This document shows positions 5,322-49,330 of a stretch of DNA of 49,912 bases, in pieces. The notes below the pieces were generated by a model. That model had not been told where the DNA came from. It ran no database searches and was given only the letters and a program-made list of their open reading frames with translations. The stretch is from the sequence record OZ335956.1. One strand, 5' to 3'. The position numbers and the translations under genes were made by a program. Position 1 is the first letter of the stretch, and every line of letters begins with the position of its first letter. This DNA comes from a phage.

Positions 5322-6086
5322 ATGGCTTACGAAAATTTAATGTTGCGCCCGGCGTGTCCTGGAAATCTTTCCGATACTTCAACCTACAATATTGATGGTG
5401 CTTGCGTTGCGCAGGGTGATATTGAGTTCGGCTCGGCGGTACAGGTTATCGGGATCGTTGATGGTGTTAAAGTCGTTACGGCGCTTACTGATGGTGGAAC
5501 TCCTTACGGTATAGCTTTCCGTTCCCAATATGAACACCTGAGCGGTAAAATCTTAGACGGCGAAGTGTGCAACGTAGTTTCTTACGGTCGAATGTGGACG
5601 CTTACTTCTCTTGATGAGGCTCCCGGCTTATTCTCAAAGTTGCAATTTGGATCTGGTGGCGTTGTTACTGGTGGATCTGGTTCCGTAGGTTGGACCTTCG
5701 CGGGTGGATTTGTTAAGCATGAAGACGGCTACATCATTGAGGTTCAGGTGAAACAAAATGCTTTCATCGTCCCACCGCCGCCTCCAGTTGTTCTTGTTGA
5801 ATCAGCTACGATCACTACCGACAAGGAAAGTCCTCAGCCTAACAACGTTACGATTCAGTGCGTAGCTAATGTTCTTCCTGTGAACGCTGATGATAAAACT
5901 GGCAAGTGGTCAATTGACGCCACCAACATTGCTACTGTGGATCCGGACTCAGGTTTGGTTACTCCTGTAGGTGGAGAAGTCGTCGGTAACTTCAATATCA
6001 CATGGACGGCTAACGACGCCAGCAAGACGAAGGCAACTATTGCCTATCGCGTAGAAGCGGCTCCAACTCCAGAAGGTGAGTCATAA
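5322..6086 (+). CDS. capsid decoration-like protein with Ig-like C-terminal domain (paralog B)
   Basis: ATG 5322 with RBS GGAGAAA; N-terminus (STYNIDGACVAQGD) paralogous to 4785..5261; PPPPP linker then beta-rich Ig-like region. Confidence 0.45.
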   Translation: MAYENLMLRPACPGNLSDTSTYNIDGACVAQGDIEFGSAVQVIGIVDGVKVVTALTDGGTPYGIAFRSQYEHLSGKILDGEVCNVVSYGRMWTLTSLDEAPGLFSKLQFGSGGVVTGGSGSVGWTFAGGFVKHEDGYIIEVQVKQNAFIVPPPPPVVLVESATITTDKESPQPNNVTIQCVANVLPVNADDKTGKWSIDATNIATVDPDSGLVTPVGGEVVGNFNITWTANDASKTKATIAYRVEAAPTPEGES

Positions 6087-6107
6087 CACAAAAATGCTTT
6101 GACGCTT

Positions 6108-6122
6108 TAACAAAAAGTGCTA
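6108..6122. promoter_or_regulatory. palindromic motif site TAACA-N5-TGCTA
   Basis: ttaacaaaaagtgcta; a weaker copy lies at 6084-6098. Confidence 0.5.
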
Positions 6123-6130
6123 TTATTGAA

Positions 6131-6157
6131 GCCGTGAACATAATCACGGCTTTTTTA
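6131..6157 (+). terminator. rho-independent terminator
   Basis: GCCGTGAACATAATCACGGC hairpin followed by TTTTTT. Confidence 0.6.
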
Positions 6158-6177
6158 TTAACTAAGGAGAAATAATT

Positions 6178-7137
6178 ATGGCTACTAAAAAATTTGATGA
6201 AGCAGACAAAAGCAATGTCGAAATGTATCTGATCCAGGCTGGCGTAAAGCAGGATGCAGCAGCAACTATGGGTATCTGGACCGCTCAGGAACTACACCGC
6301 ATCAAAAACCAGTCTTACGAAGAAGATTACCCTGTCGGCTCCGCGCTGCGAGTATTCCCGGTTACTACCGATCTTTCTCCGACTGACAAGACTTTCGAAT
6401 ACATGACCTTTGATAAGGTTGGCACGGCTCAGATTATCGCGGACTACACCGACGACCTGCCGCTTGTTGATGCCCTGGGCACTTCTGAGTTCGGTAAAGT
6501 GTTCCGTTTGGGTAACGCGTATCTGATCTCAATCGACGAAATCAAAGCGGGTCAGGCAACTGGTCGCCCACTGTCAACTCGTAAGGCAAGTGCATGTCAG
6601 TTAGCGCATGACCAACTGGTTAACCGTCTGGTGTTCAAAGGTTCCGTGCCGCACAAGATCGTGTCCGTGTTCAATCATCCGAACATCACCAAAATTACCT
6701 CCGGTAAGTGGATGGATGGCGCAACTCAGAAACCGGAAACAGCAGAAGCTGAATTGACTCAGGCAATCGAAACCATCGAGACGATTACTCGCGGTCAGCA
6801 TCGTGCAACCAACATTCTGATCCCGCCGTCCATGCGTAAGGTATTGGCTATTCGTATGCCTGAGACTACCATGTCTTATCTGGACTACTTCAAGTCTCAG
6901 AATGCTGGTATCGAGATCGACTCTATCGCAGAGCTTGAAGATATCGACGGCGCGGGTACTAAAGGTGTGCTGGTTTACGAAAAGAATCCGATGAACATGT
7001 CCATCGAGATCCCGGAAGCATTCAACATGCTGCCAGCACAGCCGAAAGACTTGCACTTTAAAGTGCCTTGCACCTCTAAGTGTACTGGTCTTACAATTTA
7101 TCGCCCGATGACTATTGTCTTAATCACTGGCGTGTAA
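6178..7137 (+). CDS. major capsid protein (putative)
   Basis: 319-aa ORF with strong RBS AAGGAGAAA, flanked by terminators on both sides; position in head module. Confidence 0.6.
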   Translation: MATKKFDEADKSNVEMYLIQAGVKQDAAATMGIWTAQELHRIKNQSYEEDYPVGSALRVFPVTTDLSPTDKTFEYMTFDKVGTAQIIADYTDDLPLVDALGTSEFGKVFRLGNAYLISIDEIKAGQATGRPLSTRKASACQLAHDQLVNRLVFKGSVPHKIVSVFNHPNITKITSGKWMDGATQKPETAEAELTQAIETIETITRGQHRATNILIPPSMRKVLAIRMPETTMSYLDYFKSQNAGIEIDSIAELEDIDGAGTKGVLVYEKNPMNMSIEIPEAFNMLPAQPKDLHFKVPCTSKCTGLTIYRPMTIVLITGV

Positions 7138-7144
7138 TATCATA

Positions 7145-7175
7145 GGGGCTAACTTAGTTAGTCCCTTTTTTTTTA
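7145..7175 (+). terminator. rho-independent terminator
   Basis: GGGGCTAAC..GTTAGTCCC hairpin followed by T10. Confidence 0.65.
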
Positions 7176-7189
7176 TTGGAGAAATCAAA

Positions 7190-7477
7190 ATGGCTAAAGA
7201 AAAAACTGTTGTTATCGTAAACGTTGGTGTAGCTCTTCAAATGTTCCGTCTTGAAGATGGTTCATTTGCTAAAGTTCTTCCAGATGAAGAGGTCACGCTT
7301 CCGGCGTCCGTTCTTGATTTACCTGGCCTGCGTTGCTTAATTGCTCGCGAAGAAATCGAAGTTAAAGACGATAGTGCAACCAACCGCAAAATCCGCGATG
7401 AAATGGCAAAGATCACGAAGCCAGATCCGTGGGATAGCAAAAGCGTTAAAGAGCTTGAGGACGGCGGCGAATATTAA
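7190..7477 (+). CDS. hypothetical protein
   Basis: 95-aa ORF with RBS GGAGAAA between two terminators. Confidence 0.5.
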   Translation: MAKEKTVVIVNVGVALQMFRLEDGSFAKVLPDEEVTLPASVLDLPGLRCLIAREEIEVKDDSATNRKIRDEMAKITKPDPWDSKSVKELEDGGEY

Positions 7478-7483
7478 TCATCA

Positions 7484-7509
7484 AGGCGCTCATGTAGCGC
7501 CTTTTTTTA
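7484..7509 (+). terminator. rho-independent terminator
   Basis: AGGCGC..GCGCCT hairpin followed by T7. Confidence 0.6.
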
Positions 7510-9838: not shown

Positions 9839-9874
9839 GTAAAATCATCGTATCAACTTTATTCACTTCGTTTT

Positions 9875-9889
9875 TAACAAAAAGTGCTA
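9875..9889. promoter_or_regulatory. palindromic motif site TAACA-N5-TGCTA
   Basis: taacaaaaagtgcta followed by aaccaatcaggagaaatatcATG. Confidence 0.5.
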
Positions 9890-16003: not shown

Positions 16004-16009
16004 AACCAA

Positions 16010-16032: not shown

Positions 16033-16080
16033 CGCCTGTATAATGGGTTCACCGATAAATAGCACAAAAAGGTAAACATC

Positions 16081-25432: not shown

Positions 25433-25447
25433 TAGCATGAATTGCTA
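25433..25447. promoter_or_regulatory. palindromic motif site TAGCA-N5-TGCTA, beside a - strand sigma70-like promoter
   Basis: tagcatgaattgcta; on the - strand TTGCAA, 17-nt spacer, TAAAAT lies at about 25450-25478 upstream of the fiber gene. Confidence 0.5.
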
Positions 25448-25491
25448 AACACTGATTTTATCATTGCGCTAATGGTCTTGCAACGGGCAAT

Positions 25492-26447: not shown

Positions 26448-26506
26448 TTCCAGATCTCCAAATAAAAACGCGTAGAAGGATGTTACCCCGCTACGCGTCG
26501 TTTGTT

Positions 26507-26959: not shown

Positions 26960-26972
26960 CTTGATTCTCCTG

Positions 26973-26987
26973 TAGCACTTTTTGCTA
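26973..26987. promoter_or_regulatory. palindromic motif site TAGCA-N5-TGCTA
   Basis: tagcactttttgcta upstream of helicase gene. Confidence 0.55.
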
Positions 26988-27058
26988 AAAACGTTTACTG
27001 TATGCCGTGTATTATAGCGTAAACGTTACAACGATTCAAAGGATTAATAGCCGTGACA

Positions 27059-29484: not shown

Positions 29485-29496
29485 CACTTTTTGTTA
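29482..29496. promoter_or_regulatory. palindromic motif site TAGCA-N5-TGTTA
   Basis: tagcactttttgtta; includes stop codon of preceding gene. Confidence 0.55.
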
Positions 29497-29551
29497 AAAC
29501 TGCCGGAATGGAATCTGGCATTATTACCTCACCGAAACGAGAGGACTAAAA

Positions 29552-30265: not shown

Positions 30266-30513
30266 TGAACGAAAAAATGATTCCGGTTAAGTTAACTGAG
30301 CAAGGCTTATGGCTTCTTTATCGCGCTACGTGCTGCGAAATCATGGAACAAAACGGATTGACGAAAGATGTTATTGGTTGCGACTTATGGGAGTTTACCA
30401 GTTCTCTTGATATGTCATTCGACGAGATAAAGAATGAACACATTGATTATTGGCCTTCGCTCATACAAAGAGACGTAGAAGAATTTAAATCTGATACGAT
30501 CGCACAGCACTAA
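30262..30513 (+). CDS. hypothetical protein
   Basis: ATG 30262 with RBS GAGGAAAG; ends at motif site. Confidence 0.5.
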   Translation: MMNEKMIPVKLTEQGLWLLYRATCCEIMEQNGLTKDVIGCDLWEFTSSLDMSFDEIKNEHIDYWPSLIQRDVEEFKSDTIAQH

Positions 30514-30519
30514 TTGCTA
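30505..30519. promoter_or_regulatory. palindromic motif site CAGCA-N5-TGCTA
   Basis: cagcactaattgcta followed by hairpin CCCGGC..GTCGGG and TATAGT. Confidence 0.5.
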
Positions 30520-30579
30520 AAACTACCCGGCGAAAGTCGGGTATAGTTATTTCATCGAAACGAAATGAGGAATCAGAAG

Positions 30580-32501: not shown

Positions 32502-32507
32502 TTGCTA
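32493..32507. promoter_or_regulatory. palindromic motif site (degenerate left half) TCGCA-N5-TGCTA
   Basis: tcgcactaattgcta followed by hairpin CCCGAA..TTCGGG and CATAGT. Confidence 0.45.
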
Positions 32508-32565
32508 AAAACGCCCGAAGGGATTCGGGCATAGTAACCACATCGAAAACAAATAGGTAATATCA

Positions 32566-36066: not shown

Positions 36067-36123
36067 CACAATGAACTCCTTAGTTGACGGTGTAAATGAT
36101 ACACCGCCAATGGTACACGCGTT

Positions 36124-36138
36124 TTGCAAAAAGTGCTA
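36124..36138. promoter_or_regulatory. palindromic motif site
   Basis: ttgcaaaaagtgcta (- strand reads atagcactttttgcaa). Confidence 0.5.
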
Positions 36139-36142
36139 TTAG

Positions 36143-36559: not shown

Positions 36560-36623
36560 TGCGCTCACTCCTGATTGGTTTTCTTGAATAAGGCCACTTT
36601 ATCAAATGACCTTACGGCAATAT

Positions 36624-36638
36624 TAACAAATCGTGCTA
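36624..36638. promoter_or_regulatory. palindromic motif site
   Basis: taacaaatcgtgcta; - strand module homologous to the one at 44093. Confidence 0.55.
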
Positions 36639-36639
36639 T

Positions 36640-36849
36640 TTACCAGGGAATATAATCTTCGTCGTCCTCATGAGTATCATCACCAGGTAACTCAAAATTG
36701 GGATCGTATTCGCTTTCGGCATCCATATCCATATTTCCCAAAGCCTCGTCAAGCGTAATTTCTTTATATGCAACCTTGATACACCATTCAGCACCAAGCC
36801 CGGCATCAAGAGCGGCAAAATAACGAGTCCAGAAATTATCCTGTTCCAT
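36640..36849 (-). CDS. small acidic protein with SSB-tail-like C-terminus
   Basis: 69 aa; ends GDDTHEDDEDYIPW. Confidence 0.5.
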   Translation of the reverse strand: MEQDNFWTRYFAALDAGLGAEWCIKVAYKEITLDEALGNMDMDAESEYDPNFELPGDDTHEDDEDYIPW

Positions 36850-37078: not shown

Positions 37079-37140
37079 TTCTAATTCCTTTGTTTCGTTT
37101 GGTGTGGGAGTAATATATATCACTCCCGATTGTATGTCTT

Positions 37141-37155
37141 TAGCAATTCGTGCTA
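37141..37155. promoter_or_regulatory. palindromic motif site, perfect TAGCA-N5-TGCTA
   Basis: tagcaattcgtgcta. Confidence 0.55.
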
Positions 37156-37295
37156 TCAGTACTCAGAAATTACTTTGCACTCTTTGATTGTTCCACCCAA
37201 AACTACTTTCTGCATCATTGCTTTTTGGTGGCTATCGTAAACGCGAACATTTTTTACGCTATTAAATTTACCCGTATAGAAGGTGTGAATATAAA

Positions 37296-38197: not shown

Positions 38198-38255
38198 GAT
38201 TCTTTCCTCATTTGCTGTTGATGGGATGACTATACCAGCCATCCCGGATGCGCGT

Positions 38256-38270
38256 TTAGCAATTCGTGCT
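38256..38270. promoter_or_regulatory. palindromic motif site, perfect TAGCA-N5-TGCTA
   Basis: tagcaattcgtgcta. Confidence 0.55.
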
Positions 38271-38271
38271 A

Positions 38272-38607
38272 TTAAGCAATATCGAACTCAGCGGCATATG
38301 CTTCCTTGAAGCCAGCTTCACGCATGGTGCGCTTGCTGATTTTGCGCTGGAATTTGTACTGGCTGTTAGGCATAACCCACCAGAAGCAGGCAGTTTCACG
38401 AACGATTTCATATTTACCGTAACGGGTGAAGGTGTCGCGTTCCATATCCGGCTGATTTACACAGGTCAGGAATTTAGCTGCCTTGTCTTCAGTTTTGATT
38501 TCTTCCCACACGAAGGAATCCATACCGTTAACCTTGCAAGCTACCATGATGTACTCAACGCCGTTTTCGATTTTGATGATTTCGTTACCGCGATTTTCGT
38601 ATTTCAT
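38272..38607 (-). CDS. hypothetical protein
   Basis: 111 aa with leader caggaacaggaaaATG. Confidence 0.5.
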   Translation of the reverse strand: MKYENRGNEIIKIENGVEYIMVACKVNGMDSFVWEEIKTEDKAAKFLTCVNQPDMERDTFTRYGKYEIVRETACFWWVMPNSQYKFQRKISKRTMREAGFKEAYAAEFDIA

Positions 38608-38672
38608 TTTCCTGTTCCTGATGTGTATCTCGTTTCGATGAGGTAATTATGCCAAATCACACCGATCGAGTT

Positions 38673-39377
38673 TTAACAAAAAGTGCTATTTGCGATCGCT
38701 TTGAAAAATCCCCTGGGTGATAGCGATCGTATCAGCTTGGTCTTTGCAGACTTGCCGCCCAGCTTGTTCTGCTGCGCAGAGTACCCGTCAGGCAGATTTA
38801 CTGGTTTTCTCTCCGGCATGACAAAGTCATCCGAGGTCCACAGGCACGTCTTCTTCGGGTAAGCATCGCGCGGCGCAATATACATCGGGAACCAGGGGTG
38901 TACGTCATTCTCCGGTAGATAGCCGCCATACTCCCAGGGGTCGAAAGTGTGGTCAGCTTTACGCCAGGCAGATGAAAGAACGCTCACCGGATTCTCAATG
39001 ATGTAAGTCACGCCCAGGCTATCGCCAATGTTCGCAGCAATCCGGGCGGTGGCAACAGCTTTCTCCTGGAATAGCGGATCACGTTCACGCTTGCTGGCAA
39101 AATGACGAGCGCCGCTAACAGCCAGGTCAGTGCACGGCGGGAATGCCATAATGAAATCCGGCTTGCCATACACACCCGCGATCGCATCTCGCTCGAACTT
39201 CTCACCAATGAAGACGTTCACATACTCAATATTCGGATGCTCCACCCGGGCATTGTGCTTTGCATAATCTCCGTGATCGGCTCCGTCAAAGTTGAAGCAC
39301 ATCACCTTATAGCCTTGCTTTGCCAGTTCATGACCAGCCAGGCCGGAACCGTCGAATAGTGACCAGATTAATTTCAT
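38673..39377 (-). CDS. compact DNA (cytosine-5)-methyltransferase-like protein (putative)
   Basis: 234 aa; motif I-like LFDGSGLAG, motif IV-like FPPCTDLAVSG, motif VI-like IENPVS. Confidence 0.45.
   Translation of the reverse strand: MKLIWSLFDGSGLAGHELAKQGYKVMCFNFDGADHGDYAKHNARVEHPNIEYVNVFIGEKFERDAIAGVYGKPDFIMAFPPCTDLAVSGARHFASKRERDPLFQEKAVATARIAANIGDSLGVTYIIENPVSVLSSAWRKADHTFDPWEYGGYLPENDVHPWFPMYIAPRDAYPKKTCLWTSDDFVMPERKPVNLPDGYSAQQNKLGGKSAKTKLIRSLSPRGFFKAIANSTFC
38674..38688. promoter_or_regulatory. palindromic motif site
   Basis: taacaaaaagtgcta. Confidence 0.55.
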
Positions 39378-39539: not shown

Positions 39540-39602
39540 TGCTGCTTCCTCTTCTGATTGGTTGATGTGATGAATCATACCCTGCCAACCTGGTCCAGTC
39601 GT

Positions 39603-39617
39603 TAGCAAAAAATGCTA
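39603..39617. promoter_or_regulatory. palindromic motif site, perfect TAGCA-N5-TGCTA
   Basis: tagcaaaaaatgcta. Confidence 0.55.
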
Positions 39618-40226
39618 TTCCAATAATTGCTTATTATTCCATCAATGCTGGAATAGGTGGAATAATTTTGATTCCGATTGATTGCAAATGATGAAACATG
39701 ATTATTGCATGGTGTGCAACAGTTGGTTGATTTATTGCTGAGATTACAATGATTGTGAGAGGGAGGATCTAGTGTTACCCGGTTCGCCTGGTAGTCATCT
39801 CCATTTTTAGCAAAAAGTGCTACCGATTACACTTTAACTTGTCACTGCTGTAATATTTGTCTAGAATCACACTTGTGACAAAATTACGCACTGTGACACC
39901 TCACAATATACATATAGATATATGTATCTATATAATATATATAGTATTTTTTTTATTTATATATATAGATAATTATATTGTAATAATTGTGTATAGTTGT
40001 CTTACATTGTCTAGCGTACTGTTGGCATATTTCTATCTGCATGTTTATATATACAGTACTTTTTTGAGAGCTATATATTTCTATATGGACTCTAGACAGC
40101 TAGACAAATGTTACACGGCTTAAAATCGGCTTGCAGGCATTGACAACTCTACGTCGCGCTGTCACAATGGCAATTGTTGACACGTTATGACGCCATTTAC
40201 ACGCAAATAGACAAAGAGGATATATT
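39618..40226. promoter_or_regulatory. AT-rich divergent control region (candidate origin or early promoter cluster)
   Basis: non-coding; five GGAAT/ATTCC repeats at 39617-39675; sigma70-like TTGTCA-17-TAGAAT at 39839-39867; palindrome ATAGATA-tatg-TATCTAT; imperfect palindrome TGTCACAAT..ATTGTTGACA near 40160-40185. Confidence 0.5.
39808..39822. promoter_or_regulatory. palindromic motif site, perfect TAGCA-N5-TGCTA
   Basis: tagcaaaaagtgcta. Confidence 0.55.
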
Positions 40227-40754: not shown

Positions 40755-41015
40755 ATGAGCAAGATTAAGCATGACGCCCTGAAAGGTATTTTGATGCGAC
40801 TGGAGCCGGGCGAGGCATTCCAGCTTAACCCCGAAACGTTCGGATTCGTAGGCTTCTATCGGCTTGGCCTACAGATGAGTTCTCCAGCCGATGAGCTTGT
40901 CCGGTATGTGCGCAAGCAATTCGGTGTCGAGATGATTAGTCTGGGCAAAGTGCAAGGCATCCAGCTATTTATCTTCAAGCCAAATAAGATTCGTTGCTTC
41001 ACCCTGATGAAATAG
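40755..41015 (+). CDS. hypothetical early protein
   Basis: ATG 40755 with RBS AAGGAGAG; ends in motif site. Confidence 0.5.
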   Translation: MSKIKHDALKGILMRLEPGEAFQLNPETFGFVGFYRLGLQMSSPADELVRYVRKQFGVEMISLGKVQGIQLFIFKPNKIRCFTLMK

Positions 41016-41027
41016 CACTTTTTGTTA
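41013..41027. promoter_or_regulatory. palindromic motif site heading an early module
   Basis: tagcactttttgtta then hairpin GGGATAAC..GTTATCCC enclosing TGGTATAGT. Confidence 0.55.
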
Positions 41028-41086
41028 AAACCGGATCGGGATAACCTGGTATAGTTATCCCATCAACAACGAATGAGGAAGCGAAT

Positions 41087-41283: not shown

Positions 41284-41754
41284 ATGACAACAATCACTGT
41301 ATTCTTGGCGAAAGACGAACTGGACGACGAAATGTCATTCTTCGCGTTTGAGCACAGAACCGGATCGCACTGGCACACTTACAGCCACTACACGGTTATC
41401 TCAATCGAAGCGTACGACGGGGATTTGCTCACTGACAAGCTGAGTGATTTTATTGAAACTGTTAAGACTAGCGAAGGTTGCGAGTGGAAAGAAGATCATG
41501 AAGTTATGCGAATGTACGAGATGATTAATCCGGTTCGCCTTGAGTCGTTCGAGCTTGATCCTGATGTGACTATTAAGGTGAGAAAGCCTGGTGAGTTGTT
41601 GCCAGGGATGCGTGTGCTGACTGGTTGCACAGGCCGTAAGGTGTGGCGCACGGTATCGAAGGTTCGCCAGCGTTCAGAAACATGCTATAGCTTATTCTTT
41701 GAAGATGGTTGGAATGAGATGGCTGGTAGCGAAGTGAAGTACCTCACCAAATAG
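41284..41754 (+). CDS. hypothetical early protein
   Basis: 156 aa, RBS GGAGG. Confidence 0.55.
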   Translation: MTTITVFLAKDELDDEMSFFAFEHRTGSHWHTYSHYTVISIEAYDGDLLTDKLSDFIETVKTSEGCEWKEDHEVMRMYEMINPVRLESFELDPDVTIKVRKPGELLPGMRVLTGCTGRKVWRTVSKVRQRSETCYSLFFEDGWNEMAGSEVKYLTK

Positions 41755-41766
41755 CACGAATTGTTA
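41752..41766. promoter_or_regulatory. palindromic motif site heading an early module
   Basis: tagcacgaattgtta then hairpin GGGGTA..TACCCC enclosing TGATATAGT. Confidence 0.55.
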
Positions 41767-41832
41767 AAACCGGATCGGGGTATCTTGATATAGTTACCCC
41801 ATCGAAACGAGATACCAATCAGAGGAATCACC

Positions 41833-42616: not shown

Positions 42617-42808
42617 ATGGCTGATTTTATGCACCAAATGATTGCAGTATTCAAAGGCAGCGATGACCAGGAAGTGAAAGAGTGCTTTACCGTTGACAAG
42701 CCTTATAGTGCGTCGCTTACCAGCTTCGGGAACATCTCATTGCTTGATGATAATGGAGATCCCTGGATATTCGACGAAGATACTGATTGCTTCGAAATTA
42801 AAGAATAG
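42617..42808 (+). CDS. hypothetical early protein
   Basis: 63 aa, acidic; ends in motif site. Confidence 0.5.
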   Translation: MADFMHQMIAVFKGSDDQEVKECFTVDKPYSASLTSFGNISLLDDNGDPWIFDEDTDCFEIKE

Positions 42809-42820
42809 CACTTTTTGTTA
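42806..42820. promoter_or_regulatory. palindromic motif site heading an early module
   Basis: tagcactttttgtta then hairpin GGGGTT..AACCCC enclosing GCGCTATAGT. Confidence 0.55.
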
Positions 42821-42879
42821 AAACTCAATATAGGGGTTGCGCTATAGTAACCCCATCGACAACGAGCGAGGACGATAGC

Positions 42880-43368
42880 ATGAAAATCAAATTACTTTGC
42901 ACTGGCGGTTATAAAGGCTTTACCCGAGATCTGGAAGCAGACCCTATCGTGGTTGATGCGGTGAAGTGTGATGATAGCCTCGGCGGCTACCGCGTGAAGT
43001 TTGACGACCTGGTTAAAGCTGGTGTGTACGATCTGGATTATGGACTTTCGGTTAGCCCGGTAGTCGGCCCGGCAGATTTCAACGAGAAGGACGGAACGAT
43101 GTTCTTTTTTGAATGGGAAGTGCAATCAAACATCAAGCCGCGCAAGGTTCGTCTTCTCAGCAATGGCGGCTACCCTATGCGCCCAGGTTATGAGAATCGC
43201 ACGTTCCCGGTTATCGTTGACTTTGAAGAAATCACCGCACACTTAGCTTATATCAACGGTGAACAGCTTAATGCTGTTGGATTCGTGGGAGGTATGAATC
43301 AAGAGGCGCTATGCTTCTTCCATTGTAAAGCCGAGCCGTTCGATATTGAGTGCGAATTGGTTTACTAA
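42880..43368 (+). CDS. hypothetical early protein
   Basis: 162 aa, RBS GAGGA. Confidence 0.55.
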   Translation: MKIKLLCTGGYKGFTRDLEADPIVVDAVKCDDSLGGYRVKFDDLVKAGVYDLDYGLSVSPVVGPADFNEKDGTMFFFEWEVQSNIKPRKVRLLSNGGYPMRPGYENRTFPVIVDFEEITAHLAYINGEQLNAVGFVGGMNQEALCFFHCKAEPFDIECELVY

Positions 43369-43381
43369 GCACGAATTGTTA
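43367..43381. promoter_or_regulatory. palindromic motif site heading an early module
   Basis: aagcacgaattgtta followed by extended -10 TGGTATAAT. Confidence 0.55.
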
Positions 43382-43439
43382 AAAGTGGATTTGGCCTGAC
43401 TGGTATAATCCCCACATCAACCACTAAGAGGAAATCATT

Positions 43440-43946: not shown

Positions 43947-44095
43947 TGGTTACCTGGGTTTTGATTATCCTGATGAGCAATGGACCGGATCACGTATATA
44001 TGAACAGCCAGCATTCATGCAATGAGGCTCGGGCAGTCATTGCAGATAACAAGCCGTTCGGATACGAAGTAAAAACTATGTGCGTTAAACGATAG
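43946..44095 (+). CDS. small hypothetical protein (49 aa, below track cutoff)
   Basis: ATG overlapping upstream stop (TAATG); hydrophobic N-terminus; its stop TAG is the first triplet of motif site 44093. Confidence 0.4.
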   Translation: MVTWVLIILMSNGPDHVYMNSQHSCNEARAVIADNKPFGYEVKTMCVKR

Positions 44096-44107
44096 CACGA
44101 ATTGCTA
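44093..44107. promoter_or_regulatory. palindromic motif site, perfect, heading an early module
   Basis: tagcacgaattgcta then hairpin GGCCA..TGGCC enclosing TGATATAGT. Confidence 0.55.
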
Positions 44108-44175
44108 AACCTTCCGCAAGGCCATTTGATATAGTGGCCTTATTGAAGCAGGGCAACCAATCAGAGGAATCAGCT

Positions 44176-45479: not shown

Positions 45480-45682
45480 CAGCAGAAGATGCAGCACGCG
45501 ACGCAGTGGAAGGAATGCGCCCAAATAGCTCCAGAATCGCCCACTACTACAAATCTGAGGTGTCGGCAGTGCAATTGACCCACGAAATTTTAAGGCTCCC
45601 ACAGGTCGATTCAGCGCGCGTAGTGACGTGCTTAAAAAATTATTTTTGCATTGCTATTAAAACGAATAGCACGAATTGCTAA
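45464..45682 (+). CDS. hypothetical early protein
   Basis: 72-aa ORF ending in motif site 45667. Confidence 0.4.
   Translation: MATIMTAEDAARDAVEGMRPNSSRIAHYYKSEVSAVQLTHEILRLPQVDSARVVTCLKNYFCIAIKTNSTNC
45667..45681. promoter_or_regulatory. palindromic motif site, perfect, heading an early module
   Basis: tagcacgaattgcta then hairpin GGGGAAT..ATTCCCC enclosing GCGCTATGAT. Confidence 0.55.
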
Positions 45683-45739
45683 AACCTATCAAGGGGAATG
45701 CGCTATGATTCCCCTACACCAACAAGCGAGGAAACACAC

Positions 45740-46186
45740 ATGAAACACTTAATCTGTATTGAAGCACCTAACGATGAATACACTCTTCACGGCATTGGTA
45801 TGTTCAAAGGTCACTATATGACCGCAAGCATTTACGACGCGCATCGAGGTGACGGCGATCTAATGATTAAGTCAAAAGAGGTTAATCCGTACATCATGCA
45901 GAATCTTGGTAATAACGAATATATGGCCTACGGATGCAATGCGGTTTACAAGCACATCAAGATCCGCAAGCGTGTAGTGCGTGCATTCAAGAAAATTGCA
46001 ATGAAGCACTGGAAGATGAGCAAGAAGGACGCCGGACGCTGGGCGCGCAATGTTGCTGACTCATACTTCTACCGTAACGGTGAGTCCTGCTACTTCCTTA
46101 TCGATGAACTTATGGAAAACTGCGGAGGCGACTTCAGCCAGATTAGCTTTGACGATTGGGCTAACTATGAGATTAGTTGCTGGTAA
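45740..46186 (+). CDS. hypothetical early protein
   Basis: 148 aa, RBS GAGGAAA. Confidence 0.55.
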   Translation: MKHLICIEAPNDEYTLHGIGMFKGHYMTASIYDAHRGDGDLMIKSKEVNPYIMQNLGNNEYMAYGCNAVYKHIKIRKRVVRAFKKIAMKHWKMSKKDAGRWARNVADSYFYRNGESCYFLIDELMENCGGDFSQISFDDWANYEISCW

Positions 46187-46201
46187 TGGCACGAATTGCT
46201 A
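46187..46201. promoter_or_regulatory. palindromic motif site heading an early module
   Basis: tggcacgaattgcta then hairpin AAGGGTA..TGCCCTT enclosing TGATAGAAT. Confidence 0.5.
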
Positions 46202-46269
46202 AAACTTGCTCAAGGGTATTTGATAGAATGCCCTTCGTTGAGTTAAGCAACCAATCAGAGGAATAAATC

Positions 46270-46911: not shown

Positions 46912-47484
46912 ATGAAAACAGCTATCATTTTAAACGGCGCGCCGGGCGCTGGTAAGGACACTATCGGCGCAATCCTGGCTGACATTTACGATCACGTAGC
47001 TTTGCGCAGCTTCAAAGAGCCGATGTTTGAGATTGCTCGGGCAATACTTGGTGAAACTAACTACGAGTATTTCATGTTCTTGTATGAGGACCGTCGATAC
47101 AAAGAAGAGCCAGCATCTATCCTGAACGGTAAAAGCCCACGCCAGTTTATGATCTGGATTAGCGAAGAGGTAATCAAGCCACAGTTCGGCAATCGCTTCT
47201 TCGGTATGCGAGCGGAAAGTAAGGTGAAAGAGTCGTACTCCCTTTCGGTATTTACTGACGGTGGATTCAAAGATGAGATCTTGCAAATGATTGAAGGCGA
47301 TATCCAGGTAAAGCTATGTCGAATCCATCGCAACGGTTGCAACTTCGATAATGACAGTCGCGATTATATCTACCTGGATGATATGATCGGGGTCAACGGT
47401 TATCAGGAATGTGATTTCTTCTCTGTTGAGGGTCATCCTGAAATTACCGCTCAGCACATAGCCGCCACATTCATCAATAAATAG
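46912..47484 (+). CDS. P-loop nucleotide or polynucleotide kinase (putative)
   Basis: Walker A GAPGAGKDT near the N-terminus; RBS GGGAG. Confidence 0.6.
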   Translation: MKTAIILNGAPGAGKDTIGAILADIYDHVALRSFKEPMFEIARAILGETNYEYFMFLYEDRRYKEEPASILNGKSPRQFMIWISEEVIKPQFGNRFFGMRAESKVKESYSLSVFTDGGFKDEILQMIEGDIQVKLCRIHRNGCNFDNDSRDYIYLDDMIGVNGYQECDFFSVEGHPEITAQHIAATFINK

Positions 47485-47496
47485 CACGAATTGCTA
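47482..47496. promoter_or_regulatory. palindromic motif site, perfect, heading an early module
   Basis: tagcacgaattgcta followed by TGATATAGT. Confidence 0.55.
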
Positions 47497-47556
47497 AAGC
47501 GTCGGTGGGGTGATTTGATATAGTTACCTCATCGACAACGAAGAGAGAAAATCGAA

Positions 47557-48110: not shown

Positions 48111-48340
48111 TGTTCGGTTTAAGTGAAGCGGAATGGAATGTAGTAAAGCGTGCGGCTAAAGAACTAAATAAATTCGTCAGTGGCATGAAGAAAGAAGACC
48201 GTAAAAACGACAAGATCATGATTGACGTGATTTCTACTCATCACAAAAAGGTCGAGCTACTAATTGACCGTTACAAGTTTGTATGGACCGCCGGGTATAT
48301 TGCCGGGCGCGTAGGCAACAAAGAAGGGGATTACGAGTAA
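48110..48340 (+). CDS. hypothetical early protein
   Basis: 76 aa, RBS AAGGTGA. Confidence 0.5.
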   Translation: MFGLSEAEWNVVKRAAKELNKFVSGMKKEDRKNDKIMIDVISTHHKKVELLIDRYKFVWTAGYIAGRVGNKEGDYE

Positions 48341-48543
48341 TGGATAATTTACCAAAGAAAGGCAATCAGGTTCGATGCATCACTTCACGCAATGGTGATG
48401 CTTTCTCGGCGGGATGTTTGTACGACGTTGAAAAAGTCAGTAAAGCTAAGAGACTCGTATATGTGTACGGAGATGATGGAAACATGCATGAGATTGATTA
48501 CCCGCAGGATATGAGTAAGGGTCAGTTTGAAATTAATGATTGA
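48340..48543 (+). CDS. hypothetical early protein
   Basis: ATG 48340 with RBS GAAGGGGA; 67 aa. Confidence 0.5.
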   Translation: MDNLPKKGNQVRCITSRNGDAFSAGCLYDVEKVSKAKRLVYVYGDDGNMHEIDYPQDMSKGQFEIND

Positions 48544-48569
48544 CCTACATCCCTGAGCGGTGATAGTAT
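48540..48569 (+). promoter_or_regulatory. sigma70-like promoter
   Basis: TTGACC, 18-nt spacer, TAGTAT; -35 overlaps the stop of the preceding ORF. Confidence 0.45.
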
Positions 48570-48707
48570 TAATCCCGTAGACAGACGAGGCGCAACGAAG
48601 CGCAACGCGTGAGACGATTCTCACTCTTCCAGCTAACAAGCTCGGTTGCATAGTGGTTAAGCAACGCCGCAGACCCGTAAGCGGCAACAATTCAAGAGGA
48701 TTGCATA

Positions 48708-48869
48708 ATGCAAAACACTAAAGACGAATCAGTCAAAATTGAAATTAAAGTAACTCGCAACGGCAAAACCACTCGTTATAAGAAACGTTTGAATCCGGGC
48801 GAGGCTGTTATTGGTCGCATTTCTGGCGTTATGATTAAGGCGCAGGAAGATGAAGCGATTCAAAGTTAA
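48708..48869 (+). CDS. small hypothetical protein (53 aa, below track cutoff)
   Basis: ATG 48708 with RBS AAGAGGA downstream of a structured ~140-nt leader. Confidence 0.4.
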   Translation: MQNTKDESVKIEIKVTRNGKTTRYKKRLNPGEAVIGRISGVMIKAQEDEAIQS

Positions 48870-49035
48870 ATTAATCATTCGAAAGATGGGGATGTTTTGC
48901 CAGTCGTGCAAGCAATCTTTCGAAACTGAATTATCAGCAACCAGTCAGGAAGAGGCCATCACGAAAGCTAAGAAACTTTCTGGAGCCAATCTTGACACTC
49001 ACAAAATAAACATTGAATTAATAAAGGAGATTTAA
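48850..49035 (+). CDS. hypothetical protein (start uncertain)
   Basis: 61-aa ORF overlapping previous small ORF; contains CxxC pair; alternative ATG at 48886. Confidence 0.35.
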   Translation: MKRFKVKLIIRKMGMFCQSCKQSFETELSATSQEEAITKAKKLSGANLDTHKINIELIKEI

Positions 49036-49036
49036 T

Positions 49037-49264
49037 ATGACCATTTTTTTATCGATTCTTGCTGGTGTCGTTATTTTTGGTGCTGGTTTGTTTGCTGGCT
49101 TCGCACTTGTTGCGGCCGCAATTGCGATGGACGCGAAGGATAAGACTGGCGTATGGCTGACCTACTCACCTAAGAAGGACCAATGGGAAATGTTTGGCGA
49201 CTTTGCTCACTGCTACTCTAAAGCTCAGACCCACCCTAAAGGAATTAAGCGACGATTGTCGTGA
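49037..49264 (+). CDS. small membrane protein
   Basis: RBS AAGGAGA; N-terminal transmembrane helix (IFLSILAGVVIFGAGLFAGFALVAAAIA). Confidence 0.5.
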   Translation: MTIFLSILAGVVIFGAGLFAGFALVAAAIAMDAKDKTGVWLTYSPKKDQWEMFGDFAHCYSKAQTHPKGIKRRLS

Positions 49265-49271
49265 TAAACAC

Positions 49272-49297
49272 TAACCCGCTTCGGCGGGTTTTTTTAT
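49272..49297 (+). terminator. rho-independent terminator
   Basis: CCCGCTTCGGCGGG hairpin followed by T8. Confidence 0.65.
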
Positions 49298-49315
49298 GCC
49301 TGCAATATGGTAAAA

Positions 49316-49330
49316 TAGCACTAAATGTTA
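49316..49330. promoter_or_regulatory. palindromic motif site
   Basis: tagcactaaatgtta directly upstream of terminase small subunit RBS. Confidence 0.5.

What the first reader, a model, noticed from the sequence alone, without database searches (positions are those of the whole stretch)
6084..49330. Genome-wide palindromic operator-like motif TAGCA-N5-TGCTA (about 23 copies)
A 15-bp inverted repeat, often extended to ATAGCAC(G/T)AATTGCTAAAAC, occurs about 23 times. All copies are intergenic and occur in both orientations, in early and late regions alike. The stop codon of the upstream gene (TAG or TAA) is frequently the first triplet of the motif. Two-fold symmetry with a 5-bp spacer is what a dimeric DNA-binding protein would recognise, so this looks like a regulon of one phage or host regulator. 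An RNA hairpin or processing site is an alternative reading. The closest analogy is an activator box such as the T4 MotA box, not a plain -35 element.
Basis: seen in the sequence. Interest (0 to 1): 0.6.

Follow-up and report, generated by a model that had tools for sequence, protein, structure and literature searches.

The report
Host stress-activator boxes drive T1-like phage promoters
The repeated "palindrome" in this T1-like coliphage is the upstream half of about 20 phage promoters, and it matches, in sequence, orientation and spacing, the binding site ("marbox") of the host's MarA/SoxS/Rob stress activators, which would answer an open question about how T1-type phages are transcribed.

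Summary
The motif is real: 9 exact and 24 near-exact TAGCA-N5-TGCTA copies against 0.04 and 1.5 expected. It is not a symmetric operator. It is an oriented, asymmetric box of about 20 bp, AATAGCAC-nnn-TTGyTAAAA. The window is a T1-like phage (UP30, Drexlerviridae). The box was already published as a "21-nt direct repeat" of unknown function in TLS, T1, Rtp and Rogue1. New here: in about 19 copies the box lies exactly 22 nt upstream of an extended -10 with no -35, it points towards the downstream gene, and a variable stem-loop is embedded between box and start site. T4-type PeSL cassettes have this layout. The design is conserved in T1, TLS, Rtp, KLPN1 and Vc1. The box matches the published marbox consensus (GCAHWWWWTGYYAAA) at 14-15 of 15 positions, in the forward orientation. 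Its distance to the -10 (35 nt) equals that at the E. coli class II promoters micF and nfo. Five or six further copies overlap σ70 promoters of late genes in repressor positions. The phage's Cro-like regulator has a variable recognition helix while the box is invariant, and no MarA homologue is encoded. Best reading (about 0.6): class II marbox promoters read by host MarA/SoxS/Rob/RamA. This is untested experimentally.

The parts
26971..27022 (+). Class-1 cassette ahead of the RadD-type helicase gene (27053): perfect marbox 26975-26989, -10 TATTAT 27010-27015, predicted TSS about 27022
   Evidence: The -10 overlaps, face to face, the -10 of the regulator's own promoter.
27011..27039 (-). Canonical σ70 promoter of the regulator gene (TTGAAT-17-TATAAT). 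The box lies in its leader, centred at about +22.
   Evidence: The same design occurs in KLPN1 (TTGTCA-16-TATAAT; read from the sequence).
26507..26959 (-). Cro-fold 'transcriptional regulator' (phrog_2856), a Drexlerviridae core gene. Invariant N-terminal arm, variable recognition helix.
29480..29531 (+). Class-1 cassette ahead of the Dam methylase gene (29552): perfect marbox 29484-29498, -10 CATTAT 29519-29524. TAG of the box is the stop of ORF 29068-29484.
   Evidence: 77g, 87, 101
30503..30554 (+). Class-1 cassette: perfect marbox 30507-30521, GAAA-tetraloop hairpin in the spacer, -10 TATAGT 30542-30547
32491..32542 (+). Class-1 cassette: perfect marbox 32495-32509, hairpin, -10 CATAGT 32530-32535, ahead of ORF 32565
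36089..36140 (-). Class-1 cassette ahead of the DUF3987-type helicase gene: marbox 36122-36136 (1 mismatch), -10 TATCAT 36096-36101
36589..36640 (-). Class-1 cassette: marbox 36622-36636 (2 mismatches), -10 TAAAGT 36596-36601, ahead of ORF starting at 36559
37105..37157 (-). Class-1 cassette: marbox 37139-37153, -10 TATATT 37112-37117 (spacing +1)
38222..38273 (-). Class-1 cassette: marbox 38255-38269, -10 TATAGT 38229-38234
38639..38690 (-). Class-1 cassette: perfect marbox 38672-38686, -10 CATAAT 38646-38651, ahead of ORF starting at 38607
39567..39619 (-). Class-1 cassette at the head of the leftward early operon: marbox 39601-39615, -10 TATGAT 39574-39579 (spacing +1). No significant hairpin.
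41011..41062 (+). First class-1 cassette of the rightward early operon: perfect marbox 41015-41029, hairpin GGGATAAC/GTTATCCC around -10 TATAGT 41050-41055
41750..41801 (+). Class-1 cassette: marbox 41754-41768, -10 TATAGT 41789-41794
42804..42855 (+). Class-1 cassette: perfect marbox 42808-42822, -10 TATAGT 42843-42848
43365..43416 (+). Class-1 cassette: marbox 43369-43383, -10 TATAAT 43404-43409
44091..44142 (+). Class-1 cassette: marbox 44095-44109, hairpin GGCCA/TGGCC, -10 TATAGT 44130-44135. The whole cassette is 89-98% conserved in many Klebsiella Webervirus phages although the flanks are not.
45665..45716 (+). Class-1 cassette: marbox 45669-45683, -10 TATGAT 45704-45709
46185..46236 (+). 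Class-1 cassette ahead of the polynucleotide kinase gene (46270): marbox 46189-46203, -10 TAGAAT 46224-46229
47480..47531 (+). Class-1 cassette: marbox 47484-47498, 15-bp hairpin with G-U pairs, -10 TATAGT 47519-47524
26473..26524 (-). Box after the regulator's stop codon and ahead of the primase gene: marbox 26506-26520 (1 mismatch), followed by a true terminator hairpin with a U-run. Only a weak -10-like TAACAT, so promoter status is uncertain.
6099..6126 (+). Late major-capsid promoter TTGACG-16-TATTAT (TGn) with a perfect reverse-oriented marbox (6106-6120) inside its spacer, a repressor-type position
   Evidence: The same layout occurs in T1 and TLS. Precedent: pbpG.
16039..16076 (+). Late tail-tip (J) module: -10 TATAAT 16039-16044 after terminator 16008-16026. 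Box 16062-16076 lies at about +12 to +26 and abuts the RBS of gene 16081.
   Evidence: TLS has a copy ahead of tspJ.
25435..25483 (-). Late tail-fibre promoter TTGCAA-17-TAAAAT (TGn) with the box (25435-25449, reversed relative to the gene) at about +1 to +15
49307..49332 (+). TerS module: extended -10 TGgTAAAAT (49307-49315) overlapping a perfect forward marbox 49318-49332 (about -4 to +11), 16 nt before the TerS start
9873..9887 (-). Perfect marbox, reversed, between terminator 9810-9827 and the RBS of the tail-chaperone gene (9912). No clear promoter assigned.
39806..39820 (-). Perfect marbox in the 39.6-40.2 kb control region with no -10 at 35 nt. It lies about 59 bp upstream of the TSS of the rightward canonical promoter TTGTCA-17-TAGAAT (39839-39867), in reverse orientation (a class-I-like position).

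Best explanation
The motif is the upstream recognition box of a promoter type specific to the Drexlerviridae, and that box is a consensus marbox. Each of about 19 cassettes contains, in order: the stop codon of the upstream gene (often the TAG of the box); the oriented 20-bp box AATAGCAC-nnn-TTGyTAAAA at -51 to -32; an 18-20-nt free spacer that usually carries the left arm of a site-specific stem-loop; an extended -10 (G at -14, TAnnnT); a CA start; a conserved leader (ATCGAAAC...); then the RBS and ATG. There is no -35 hexamer. The box matches the binding site of the monomeric, two-HTH AraC-family activators MarA, SoxS and Rob (RamA in Klebsiella and Salmonella). [quoted passage not shown] The most likely mechanism is therefore that a host MarA-family activator binds the box at about -40, contacts σ70 region 4 and αCTD, and recruits host RNA polymerase to the phage's early and DNA-metabolism promoters. 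In the Tunavirus/Tlsvirus lineages, extra copies lie inside or just downstream of σ70 promoters of late genes (capsid, J, tail fibre, TerS) and of the phage regulator gene, where the same protein would hinder RNA polymerase. The embedded stem-loops most likely act on read-through RNA as attenuators or 3'-end stabilisers, as shown for T4-type PeSLs. Shown here: the statistics, the anatomy, the family-wide conservation, the consensus match and the geometry match. Inferred: the actual TSS, protein binding, activation and repression in vivo, and which paralogue (Rob, MarA, SoxS or RamA) matters.
For: Fixed geometry: 20 of 27 sites have a -10-like hexamer 22 (±1) nt after TTGYTA, and random positions rarely score as high. 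G at -14 carries 1.38 bits and the start is CA. The canonical -35 position is no better than random. Orientation follows the downstream gene. Conservation: box + 22 nt + TANNNT gives 20, 20 and 17 hits in T1, TLS and Rtp (0.08-0.21 expected), 12 of 15 in KLPN1 and 7 each in Vc1 and L007. Marbox identity: the published consensuses are gcannwwntgnnaaa (PMC12052159), GCAHWWWWTGYYAAA (PMC6900184) and CACN-7X-AAA (PMC8811837). The window has 25 hits at <=1 mismatch, 11 of them perfect, against 1.67 expected. The other genomes have 15-22 hits with 9-12 perfect, against 0-1 in shuffles. Class II is defined as forward orientation overlapping the -35, centred between -36 and -55; the phage box is forward and centred at about -40. 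Benchmarks: at micF (TSS annotated) the G of the marbox is 35 nt from the -10, and the same holds at nfo and in the phage, where 13-18 sites per genome sit at exactly 35. The nominal -35 is AAAACA in micF and AAAAC(C/T) in the phage. Invariant reader: the box is identical across subfamilies, while the only phage HTH protein has a variable recognition helix and the immediate-early proteins are not conserved. No MarA, SoxS or Rob homologue is encoded and there is no other DNA-binding domain among about 40 proteins scanned. The marbox and its readers are conserved in enteric bacteria. [quoted passage not shown] All late copies are centred between about -20 and +22. Stem-loops: mean z is -3.7 in the window and -3.5 in KLPN1 (77e).
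Against: There is no experimental evidence. No TSS map or transcriptome for any T1-like phage was found, and no paper links marboxes to phage promoters. In unstressed cells MarA is low, SoxS is not induced and Rob is mostly sequestered, yet T1-type phages grow vigorously on laboratory strains. So the boxes may only modulate promoters that work through their extended -10, or the phage may mobilise Rob by an unknown route. To my knowledge, classical T1-resistant mutants map to fhuA and tonB, not to mar, sox or rob, though three-fold redundancy would hide these. The box is more conserved than a marbox needs to be (T-49, A-48, T-40, T-39), so an additional or different reader is possible. Two of the four E. 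coli geometry benchmarks (lpxC, fumC) were ambiguous. KLPN1 has no late-region copies, so the repressive role is not universal. One relative is labelled a Vibrio phage, and I did not check which MarA-family proteins that host has.
Confidence: 0.6

Rival explanations
1. A phage-encoded factor reads the box as a class-II-type activator and operator. This is closest to the first reader's view. The factor could be the Cro-fold regulator (26507-26959) acting through its invariant N-terminal basic arm rather than its HTH, or an unrecognised early protein.
For: The regulator is a Drexlerviridae core gene with a Cro fold. In all genomes one box lies between it and the divergent helicase gene, in the regulator's leader. 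Its N-terminal 35 residues are almost invariant, as expected for a partner of something invariant. Box positions (-51 to -32) resemble those of phage activators such as Mu Mor/C (my knowledge).
Against: The residues of the recognition helix that normally contact bases differ between subfamilies (SNQTVQGW, NLKTVWGW, TPQAVEEW, SIQVVQQW, VCRLTNAY), yet the box is identical in all of them, including the Vc1 branch. The box is asymmetric, unlike Cro operators. The arm is predicted to be disordered. The immediate-early proteins are not conserved. No other DNA-binding domain was found. The perfect match to the marbox would then be a coincidence of about 22 bits plus geometry.
Confidence: 0.14
2. The box is an intrinsic promoter element read directly by host σ70 RNA polymerase (a displaced -35 or UP-like element of strong early promoters), with no accessory factor, as in T4-type PeSL early promoters.
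For: The layout is the same as in PeSLs, whose promoters work with host RNAP alone. The box is invariant across hosts. TTGyTA resembles a -35, and the centre is A/T-rich at the position of the proximal UP subsite. The extended -10 could suffice for basal activity. The TLS authors proposed a UP-like role.
Against: TTGyTA is 22 bp from the -10, 5 bp beyond what σ70 region 4 can span. The best-conserved positions are G/C (GCAC, TG), unlike UP elements. Copies without a -10 are conserved inside late promoters in T1, TLS and UP30, which implies a factor that binds the box on its own. This rival also gives no reason for the 15/15 marbox match.
Confidence: 0.12
3. The box is a repressor-only site (a 'stoperator' or early shut-off operator) that silences early promoters and blocks read-through, as in mycobacteriophage L5. 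The TLS authors offered this option.
For: Oriented repeats lie between genes. Several copies overlap core promoters or leaders.
Against: Strict selection on the 22-nt distance to the -10, despite completely different spacer sequences, implies stereospecific cooperation with RNAP. The promoters lack a -35, so they need help rather than silencing. No conserved repressor candidate was found.
Confidence: 0.05
4. Host Lrp binds the palindromic core. The Lrp consensus is yAGhAwATTwTdCTr.
For: The arms TAGCA/TGCTA satisfy yAGhA/TdCTr: 13/15 for the TTT subtype and 11/15 for the GAA subtype (consensus verified in PMC5554404). Lrp is conserved in enterics.
Against: The centre fits poorly. This rival does not explain the asymmetry, the orientation, the conserved C-44 and TAAAA, or the fixed class II spacing. 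The match is much weaker than the marbox match.
Confidence: 0.03
5. The element works as RNA: a 5-bp hairpin that acts as a processing, antitermination or protein-binding site.
For: The box is transcribed in read-through RNA. The C/T alternation at position 13 keeps a G-C or G-U pair on the sense strand.
Against: There are no compensatory double changes in 47 copies, and single changes break pairs. The stem is only -1.3 to -3.7 kcal/mol. The loop varies. There is no Rfam hit. The strict distance to a DNA-level -10 is unexplained.
Confidence: 0.03

Closest known systems
Class II marbox promoters of the E. coli/enteric mar-sox-rob(-ram) regulon (micF, nfo, lpxC P2, lpxL P1, rfaY P1)
   Same: The box matches the consensus at 14-15 of 15 positions. 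It is asymmetric, in the forward orientation, overlaps or replaces the -35, is centred at about -40, and its G is 35 nt from the -10, as at micF and nfo. Copies that overlap core promoters correspond to the repressive arrangement at pbpG.
   Different: The boxes lie on a virulent phage genome, about 20 per 50 kb, and are near-perfect and almost identical to each other, whereas host marboxes are degenerate. Extra positions are conserved (AAT upstream, TT before the G, a fourth A). A stem-loop is embedded in the spacer. The promoters have an extended -10 and no -35 at all. Protein binding has not been tested.
PeSL (promoter-early stem-loop) cassettes of T4-type phages (PMC2839356, PMC4122927)
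   Same: Both are composite intergenic cassettes with the same order of parts: upstream stop codon, promoter, stem-loop (with G-T pairs) between or over the promoter boxes, SD and ATG. Both are repeated between small early ORFs. In Rtp, cassettes accompany inserted genes (HNH endonucleases, rtp22, rtp34).
   Different: PeSL promoters are σ70-consensus promoters with a normal -35 and an AT-rich upstream region, and they need no activator. There is no sequence homology. A role in recombination or shuffling was not tested here.
The '21-nt direct repeat' aaATAGCACnnnTTGnTAAAA of phage TLS (PMC11447400)
   Same: It is the same element: same consensus, same subtypes (TTT, GAA, AAA), same direction as transcription, about 76 nt before start codons. 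It was also noted in T1, Rtp and Rogue1.
   Different: That paper left the function open (stoperator, enhancer site or UP element). It did not report the fixed distance to a -10, the stem-loop, the late-promoter copies or the marbox match.
Phage activator boxes that replace the -35 (T4 MotA box; Mu Mor/C sites)
   Same: Both are σ70 -10-only promoters that depend on a box upstream of the -10.
   Different: The MotA box (TGCTT-type) is centred at -30 and needs phage MotA and AsiA. Mor and C are phage dimers at dyad sites centred at -43.5. No homologues are present here, and the box fits a host monomeric activator instead. The details of MotA, Mor and C are from my own knowledge.

Membership tests
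Marbox (MarA/SoxS/Rob/RamA binding site) | Sequence match to the published consensus 5'-GCAHWWWWTGYYAAA-3' / gcannwwntgnnaaa / CACN-7X-AAA | tested here: met
   25 hits at <=1 mismatch (11 perfect) against 1.67 expected. 15-22 hits per genome in T1, TLS, Rtp and KLPN1 against 0-1 in shuffles. Consensuses.
Marbox (MarA/SoxS/Rob/RamA binding site) | Non-palindromic, with a defined orientation | tested here: met
   Asymmetric conservation from -51 to -32. Orientation follows the downstream gene at about 19 sites.
Class II marbox promoter | Forward orientation, overlapping the -35 region, centred between -36 and -55, with the same distance to the -10 as validated class II promoters | tested here: met
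   Forward, centred at about -40. The G is 35 nt from the -10 at 13-18 sites per genome, as at micF and nfo. lpxC and fumC were ambiguous. The TSS is predicted, not measured.
Class II marbox promoter | Bound and activated by MarA, SoxS, Rob or RamA | not testable with these tools
   Needs EMSA or footprinting, in vitro transcription, and infection of ΔmarA ΔsoxS Δrob hosts.
Repressive marbox | Marbox centred between -35 and +25 of a σ70 promoter, in either orientation | tested here: met
   Centres: capsid about -20, TerS about +3, tail fibre about +6, J about +18, regulator about +22. Criterion and the pbpG precedent. Repression itself was not tested.
PeSL-type composite promoter/stem-loop cassette | Stable stem-loop embedded between or over the promoter boxes, flanked by the upstream stop codon and the downstream SD and ATG | tested here: met
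   17 of 19 cassettes have MFE far below shuffles (mean z -3.7). KLPN1 gives mean z -3.5 (call 77e). Stop-codon overlap is in call 77g.
PeSL-type composite promoter/stem-loop cassette | σ70-consensus promoter with a canonical -35 at 16-18 bp | tested here: not met
   The best match to TTGACA at 16-18 bp is 1-4 of 6, the same as at random positions.
PeSL-type composite promoter/stem-loop cassette | Mediates modular shuffling of flanked ORFans | tested here: inconclusive
   Rtp-specific inserted genes (rtp20, rtp22, rtp34, rtp40) each carry a box about 71-76 nt upstream. One cassette is conserved across genera with unrelated flanks. Breakpoints were not analysed.
Palindromic operator of a dimeric HTH protein | Two-fold symmetry of the conserved positions, orientation independence, and co-variation with the regulator's reading head | tested here: not met
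   The flanks and inner positions are asymmetric. The box is orientation-dependent. The recognition helix varies while the box is invariant.
UP element (αCTD site) | A/T-tract sequence from -59 to -38 with no conserved G/C | tested here: not met
   The most informative positions are G-47, C-46, C-44 and G-38, at up to 2 bits each.
σ54 (-24/-12) promoter | GG-N10-GC spacing (TGGCAC-N5-TTGCW); consensus from my own knowledge | tested here: not met
   The box is TAGCAC-N3-TTGC, 2 bp too short, with AG instead of GG. A σ70-type -10 is present at a fixed distance.
T4 MotA box | TGCTT-type box centred at -30, with phage MotA and AsiA (my own knowledge) | tested here: not met
   The box is centred at about -40. 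Pfam finds no MotA or AsiA-like domain in about 40 phage proteins.
Lrp binding site | yAGhAwATTwTdCTr | tested here: inconclusive
   The arms fit and the centre does not: 11-13 of 15 (consensus). This does not explain the asymmetry or the spacing.
Known structured RNA family | Rfam covariance-model match, or covariation in the stem | tested here: not met
   0 Rfam matches. No compensatory changes in the palindrome arms.

The most novel reading that the evidence does not exclude
T1-like phages (Drexlerviridae) have wired essentially their whole early and middle transcription programme to the host's MarA/SoxS/Rob/RamA stress activators, and in some lineages they use the same proteins to hold late promoters off. 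The early-to-late switch would then be set by loss or titration of host activators, through short-lived MarA and SoxS after host shut-off, or through about 25 high-affinity boxes on each replicating genome soaking up Rob. Phage gene expression would also be tuned by bile salts, salicylate, antibiotics, oxidants and iron limitation, the same signals that raise receptors such as TolC.
Probability: 0.3. Interest if true: 0.85.

Novelty: new variant of a known kind. Interest (0 to 1): 0.75.

Why it matters
[quoted passage not shown] Reading the repeat as a class II marbox supplies the missing promoters and a concrete, cheaply testable mechanism.

If the reading is right, a large and practically important phage family would depend on, or be modulated by, the regulators that drive multidrug resistance in Enterobacteriaceae. 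This family includes T1 contamination of laboratories and fermenters, and many Klebsiella, E. coli and Shigella therapy candidates. That would predict interactions between antibiotics, salicylate, bile or oxidative stress and phage gene expression, which could be synergy or antagonism in therapy. It would also give a host-range determinant at the level of transcription, and provide compact, strong, activator-responsive promoter/terminator cassettes for engineering.

Tried and rejected
1. TTGyTA as a -35: rejected because the spacer is 22 bp.
2. σ54 promoter look-alike (TGGCAC-N5-TTGC): rejected because the spacing is 2 bp short and the box has AG instead of GG.
3. The Cro-like regulator as reader: weakened, because its recognition helix varies while the box is invariant.
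4. Immediate-early proteins as reader: rejected, since they are only 16-21% identical across the family.
5. Other DNA-binding proteins: none were found by Pfam or PHROGs in about 40 proteins.
6. A phage MarA homologue: none by tblastn.
7. Lrp: only a partial match.
8. By eye and from memory I also compared the box with the CRP, FNR, Fis, IHF, DnaA, ArcA, OmpR, OxyR/LTTR and λ CII sites. None fitted.
9. RNA hairpin for the palindrome: no covariation and a weak stem, and no Rfam family.
10. GATC/Dam sites in the spacers: not enriched.
11. Scan of 185,579 bacterial genomes for box + -10: chance-level scattered hits and none in enterobacterial chromosomes, so this exact design is phage-specific.
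12. A consensus-structure covariation test for the stem-loops was not attempted, because the register of the left arm varies between cassettes. Per-site shuffles were used instead (77e).
13. Literature searches for T1-family TSS or transcriptome data found nothing.
14. Two geometry benchmarks (lpxC, fumC) stayed ambiguous because the papers' figures and TSS positions were not available.
15. The 20-bp Martin consensus (AYnGCACnnWnnRYYAAAYn, with 18-19 bp to the -10) is from memory. The exact string was not found in the library.

Full report
**Observation.**

TAGCA-N5-TGCTA occurs 9 times exactly in the window (0.04 expected) and 24 times with one mismatch (1.5 expected). The extended form ATAGCACKAATTGCTAAAAC occurs 15 times with up to 3 mismatches (0 expected). 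The motif is therefore real and far above chance.

When all copies are extracted with their flanks, the element turns out to be oriented and asymmetric, TAGCAC-N3-TTGYTAAAA. A conservation profile over 44 copies from several genomes shows one contiguous box from -51 to -32, AATAGCAC-nnn-TTGyTAAAA, of about 28 bits.

**Identity and prior knowledge.**

The first 20 kb of the window are 100% identical to Escherichia phage UP30 (Tunavirus, Drexlerviridae), and the rest maps collinearly onto that record. The window is a circular permutation of the record and carries a 77-nt tandem duplication that the record lacks.

The motif has already been published. The 2024 re-annotation of phage TLS describes 18 intergenic copies of a 21-nt direct repeat, aaATAGCACnnnTTGnTAAAA. 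The copies run in the direction of transcription, lie about 76 nt before start codons, and are also seen in T1, Rtp and Rogue1. The authors list its function as an open question: stoperator, enhancer site or UP element (PMC11447400). They found only three σ70-like promoters in TLS. I found no TSS map or transcriptome for any T1-like phage.

**Anatomy.**

- **Fixed spacing.** Twenty of the 27 oriented sites have a -10-like hexamer exactly 22 (±1) nt after TTGYTA. The hexamers are TATAGT, TATAAT, TATGAT, TAGAAT, CATAAT and similar, always with A at position 2 and T at position 6. Random positions reach such scores 1-5% of the time. Of these 20, I count about 19 as promoter cassettes: the 18 listed as class-1 parts plus, with reservations, the box ahead of the primase gene. 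I excluded the intragenic copy at 30839 and the 3-mismatch match at 29873.
- **Extended -10 and start.** G at -14 is strongly conserved, which marks an extended -10, and the predicted start is a CA dinucleotide.
- **No -35.** At the canonical -35 position the match to TTGACA is no better than random. TTGyTA itself lies 5 bp too far upstream to serve as a -35.
- **Orientation.** The box always points towards the downstream gene.
- **Stem-loop.** Between box and start site, 17 of 19 cassettes carry a hairpin much more stable than shuffled sequence. Mean z is -3.7, and this is replicated in KLPN1 with mean z -3.5 (call 77e). The stems differ in sequence from site to site, use G-U pairs, and sometimes have C(GAAA)G tetraloops. 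The -10 sits in the loop or the right arm. The T1 record annotates several of these hairpins as terminators.
- **Leader.** A conserved leader (ATCGAAAC...) and the RBS follow.
- **Stop codon.** The TAG of the box is the upstream gene's stop codon at 7 of 24 sites, and a stop lies within 8 nt at 6 more (call 77g).

**Conservation.**

Box + 22 nt + TANNNT gives 20, 20 and 17 hits in T1, TLS and Rtp, against 0.08-0.21 expected. It gives 12 of 15 sites in Klebsiella phage KLPN1 and 7 hits each in 16-20 kb of two more distant relatives. It is therefore the standard promoter design of the whole family.

A scan of 185,579 bacterial genomes found only chance-level scattered hits and none in enterobacterial chromosomes.

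**Who reads the box?**

The only recognisable phage DNA-binding protein is the 150-aa "transcriptional regulator" at 26507-26959. It belongs to phrog_2856, has a sub-threshold P22-Cro/YdaS HTH match, and its predicted fold is closest to the all-α Cro proteins of Xfaso 1 and N15. It is a core gene found only in Drexlerviridae.

Its recognition helix is the variable part of the protein: SNQTVQGW, NLKTVWGW, TPQAVEEW, SIQVVQQW and, in one branch, VCRLTNAY with an insertion. An N-terminal arm is nearly invariant. Phages of the most divergent branch still carry exactly the same box at the same spacing.

Other candidates also fail:
- The immediate-early genes, the only early genes with canonical promoters and no box, are barely conserved.
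- About 40 phage proteins show no other DNA-binding domain.

An invariant box with no invariant phage reading head points to a host component.

**Marbox.**

The box matches the binding site of the monomeric AraC-family activators MarA, SoxS and Rob (RamA in Klebsiella and Salmonella). Three published forms of the consensus are:
- 5'-gcannwwntgnnaaa-3' (PMC12052159);
- 5'-GCAHWWWWTGYYAAA-3' (PMC6900184);
- CACN-7X-AAA, with MarA helix 3 on the GCAC element and helix 6 on AAA (PMC8811837).

The phage variants GCACTTTTTG(C/T)TAAA and GCACTAATTGCTAAA match 15 of 15 positions, and GCACGAATTGCTAAA matches 14 of 15. The three "subtypes" noted in TLS all satisfy the W positions.

The strict consensus carries about 22 bits. 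It gives 25 hits at ≤1 mismatch in the window, 11 of them perfect, against 1.67 expected. The other genomes give 15-22 hits, 9-12 of them perfect, against 0-1 in shuffles.

The literature defines class II promoters as those with a forward marbox overlapping the -35, centred between -36 and -55. RamA at micF is centred at about -41. The phage box is forward and centred at about -40.

Geometry benchmarks in E. coli K-12:
- **micF** (TSS annotated): the marbox GCACTGAATGTCAAA and the -10 TAGAAT put the marbox G 35 nt from the -10.
- **nfo**: also 35 nt, from GCATAAACCACTACA to TATCAT.
- **Phage**: exactly 35 nt at 13-18 sites per genome.
- **lpxC and fumC**: compatible but ambiguous.

Even the nominal -35 sequence is alike, AAAACA in micF and AAAAC(C/T) in the phage. 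No MarA, SoxS or Rob homologue is encoded by this phage or by T1, TLS, Rtp or KLPN1.

**Late-gene copies.**

Five or six copies lack a -10 at 35 nt. At five of them a σ70 promoter with its own -35 or a good -10 overlaps the box or lies just upstream of it:

| Promoter | Elements and coordinates | Position of the box |
|---|---|---|
| Major capsid | TTGACG-16-TATTAT (6099-6126) | Reverse box inside the spacer |
| Tail-tip J | TATAAT at 16039-16044 | About +12 to +26 |
| Tail fibre | TTGCAA-17-TAAAAT | About +1 to +15 |
| TerS | TGgTAAAAT | Across the start site |
| Regulator's own | TTGAAT-17-TATAAT | In its leader; the -10 overlaps, face to face, the -10 of the box-dependent helicase promoter |

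All the box centres fall between about -20 and +22. [quoted passage not shown]

The capsid arrangement is shared by T1 and TLS. KLPN1 has no late copies, so this layer is lineage-specific.

**Closest architecture.**

T4-type PeSLs are composite promoter/terminator cassettes with the same order of parts. Their stem-loops lie between or over the promoter boxes, and both promoter and attenuator activities have been shown experimentally (PMC2839356, PMC4122927).

The T1-family cassette differs in one respect: a marbox replaces the -35 and AT-rich upstream region. As with PeSLs, boxes accompany inserted genes in the Rtp late region (rtp20, rtp22, rtp34, rtp40). One cassette is 89-98% conserved across genera although its flanks are not.

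**Mechanism, and what is inferred.**

Shown here:
- the enrichment, orientation and fixed geometry;
- the missing -35;
- the stem-loops;
- family-wide invariance;
- the consensus match and the geometry match to class II marbox promoters;
- the lack of a conserved phage reader.

Inferred:
- a host MarA-family activator binds the box and recruits σ70 RNA polymerase to about 19 early and middle promoters;
- the same protein hinders late promoters;
- the stem-loops attenuate or stabilise read-through RNA.

More speculative is the idea that decay or titration of the host activators times the early-to-late switch.

**Main weaknesses.**
- There is no experimental evidence.
- In unstressed cells MarA is low and Rob is largely sequestered, so the boxes may only modulate promoters that work through their extended -10.
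- The box is more conserved than a marbox requires.

I put about 0.6 on host MarA/SoxS/Rob/RamA being the functional reader, and about 0.9 on the weaker claim that the box is the upstream element of these promoters.

**Rivals.**
- A phage factor, for example the regulator's invariant arm: 0.14.
- An RNAP-intrinsic promoter element: 0.12.
- A repressor-only "stoperator": 0.05.
- Lrp, whose arms match yAGhA/TdCTr: 0.03.
- An RNA hairpin, which shows no covariation, a weak stem and no Rfam hit: 0.03.

**Novelty.**

The repeat itself is known. No paper in the searched library links marboxes to phage promoters. The following are new here relative to that literature and are directly testable: the class II marbox reading, the fixed geometry, the embedded stem-loops and the late-promoter copies.

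Noticed in passing
window 20229-20386: A 77-nt tandem duplication (2.1 copies, 98% identical) inside the membrane-protein gene on the - strand (one ORF, 29244-30200, in the UP30 record). It splits the ORF in the window (19558-20295 and 20283-20600) and explains why the window is 78 nt longer than OX638287.1. It could be a real variant or an assembly artefact.
   Followed up: partly
window 26507-26959 (-), residues 5-35 of the product: The regulator's N-terminal arm (RIAxSTGEIDKRxxNGNNGTRRGKDKKxR) is almost invariant across the family but is predicted to be disordered, while its Cro-type recognition helix is variable. This suggests the arm binds a highly conserved partner such as RNAP, DNA or a host factor. 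Its function is unknown.
   Followed up: partly
window 26990-27040; KLPN1 L002:35615-35670: The regulator promoter (canonical -35) and the box-dependent helicase promoter are divergent and have overlapping -10 hexamers, so RNA polymerase can occupy only one at a time. This looks like a built-in switch and is conserved between Tunavirus and Webervirus. In UP30 and T1 a 9-bp inverted repeat, AACGTTTAC...GTAAACGTT, brackets the shared -10, and other phages carry different repeats there. These may be the regulator's own, phage-specific operator.
   Followed up: partly
window 39880-40070: A non-coding stretch of about 200 bp, extremely AT-rich and full of TATATA/TATAGATA-like runs, lies between the two divergent early operons and next to three canonical σ70-like promoters (39839, 39907, 40140). 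TRF found no tandem array. It could be immediate-early promoters, a pac site or an origin region.
   Followed up: partly
window 41801-41833, 44142-44176, 46236-46270, 36559-36589 (-), 9890-9911: A recurrent RBS module, (A)CCAATCAG(A/G)GGA(A/G), precedes several start codons, both in cassettes and ahead of the late tail-chaperone gene. It also occurs in KLPN1. This may be shared cassette ancestry or a translation signal.
   Followed up: no
window 41087-41281: A small early protein matches Pfam PF25180, 'phage antiviral trigger protein Gp54' (E = 9e-36), a known trigger of a bacterial defence system. It sits directly behind the first box promoter.
   Followed up: no
L024 and L033 (NZ_VSMK01000220.1, 46,669-bp contig of 'Nitratidesulfovibrio liaohensis' XJ01): This was the only contig among the bacterial genomes with two exact box-plus--10 matches. 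Its size equals a Drexlerviridae genome, so it is probably a T1-like phage contaminant in that assembly.
   Followed up: no
L006 (MT360682.2, 'Vibrio phage Vc1'): This is a Drexlerviridae genome labelled as a Vibrio phage, with the same marbox promoters and the most divergent regulator branch. If the host assignment is right, it tests whether the box reader exists outside the Enterobacteriaceae.
   Followed up: no
Rtp L005: 6317, 8426, 16304, 21394: Genes that lie within the Rtp late region (two HNH endonucleases, rtp22 and rtp34) each carry their own box promoter about 71-76 nt upstream. The cassette appears to travel with, or be acquired by, such inserted 'moron' genes.
   Followed up: partly
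window 22419-22433: A marbox-like sequence with one mismatch (GCACAAATAGCTAAA) lies between the exonuclease VIII and Erf genes, with TATAAT 34 nt downstream. That hexamer overlaps the Erf start codon, so function is doubtful.
   Followed up: no
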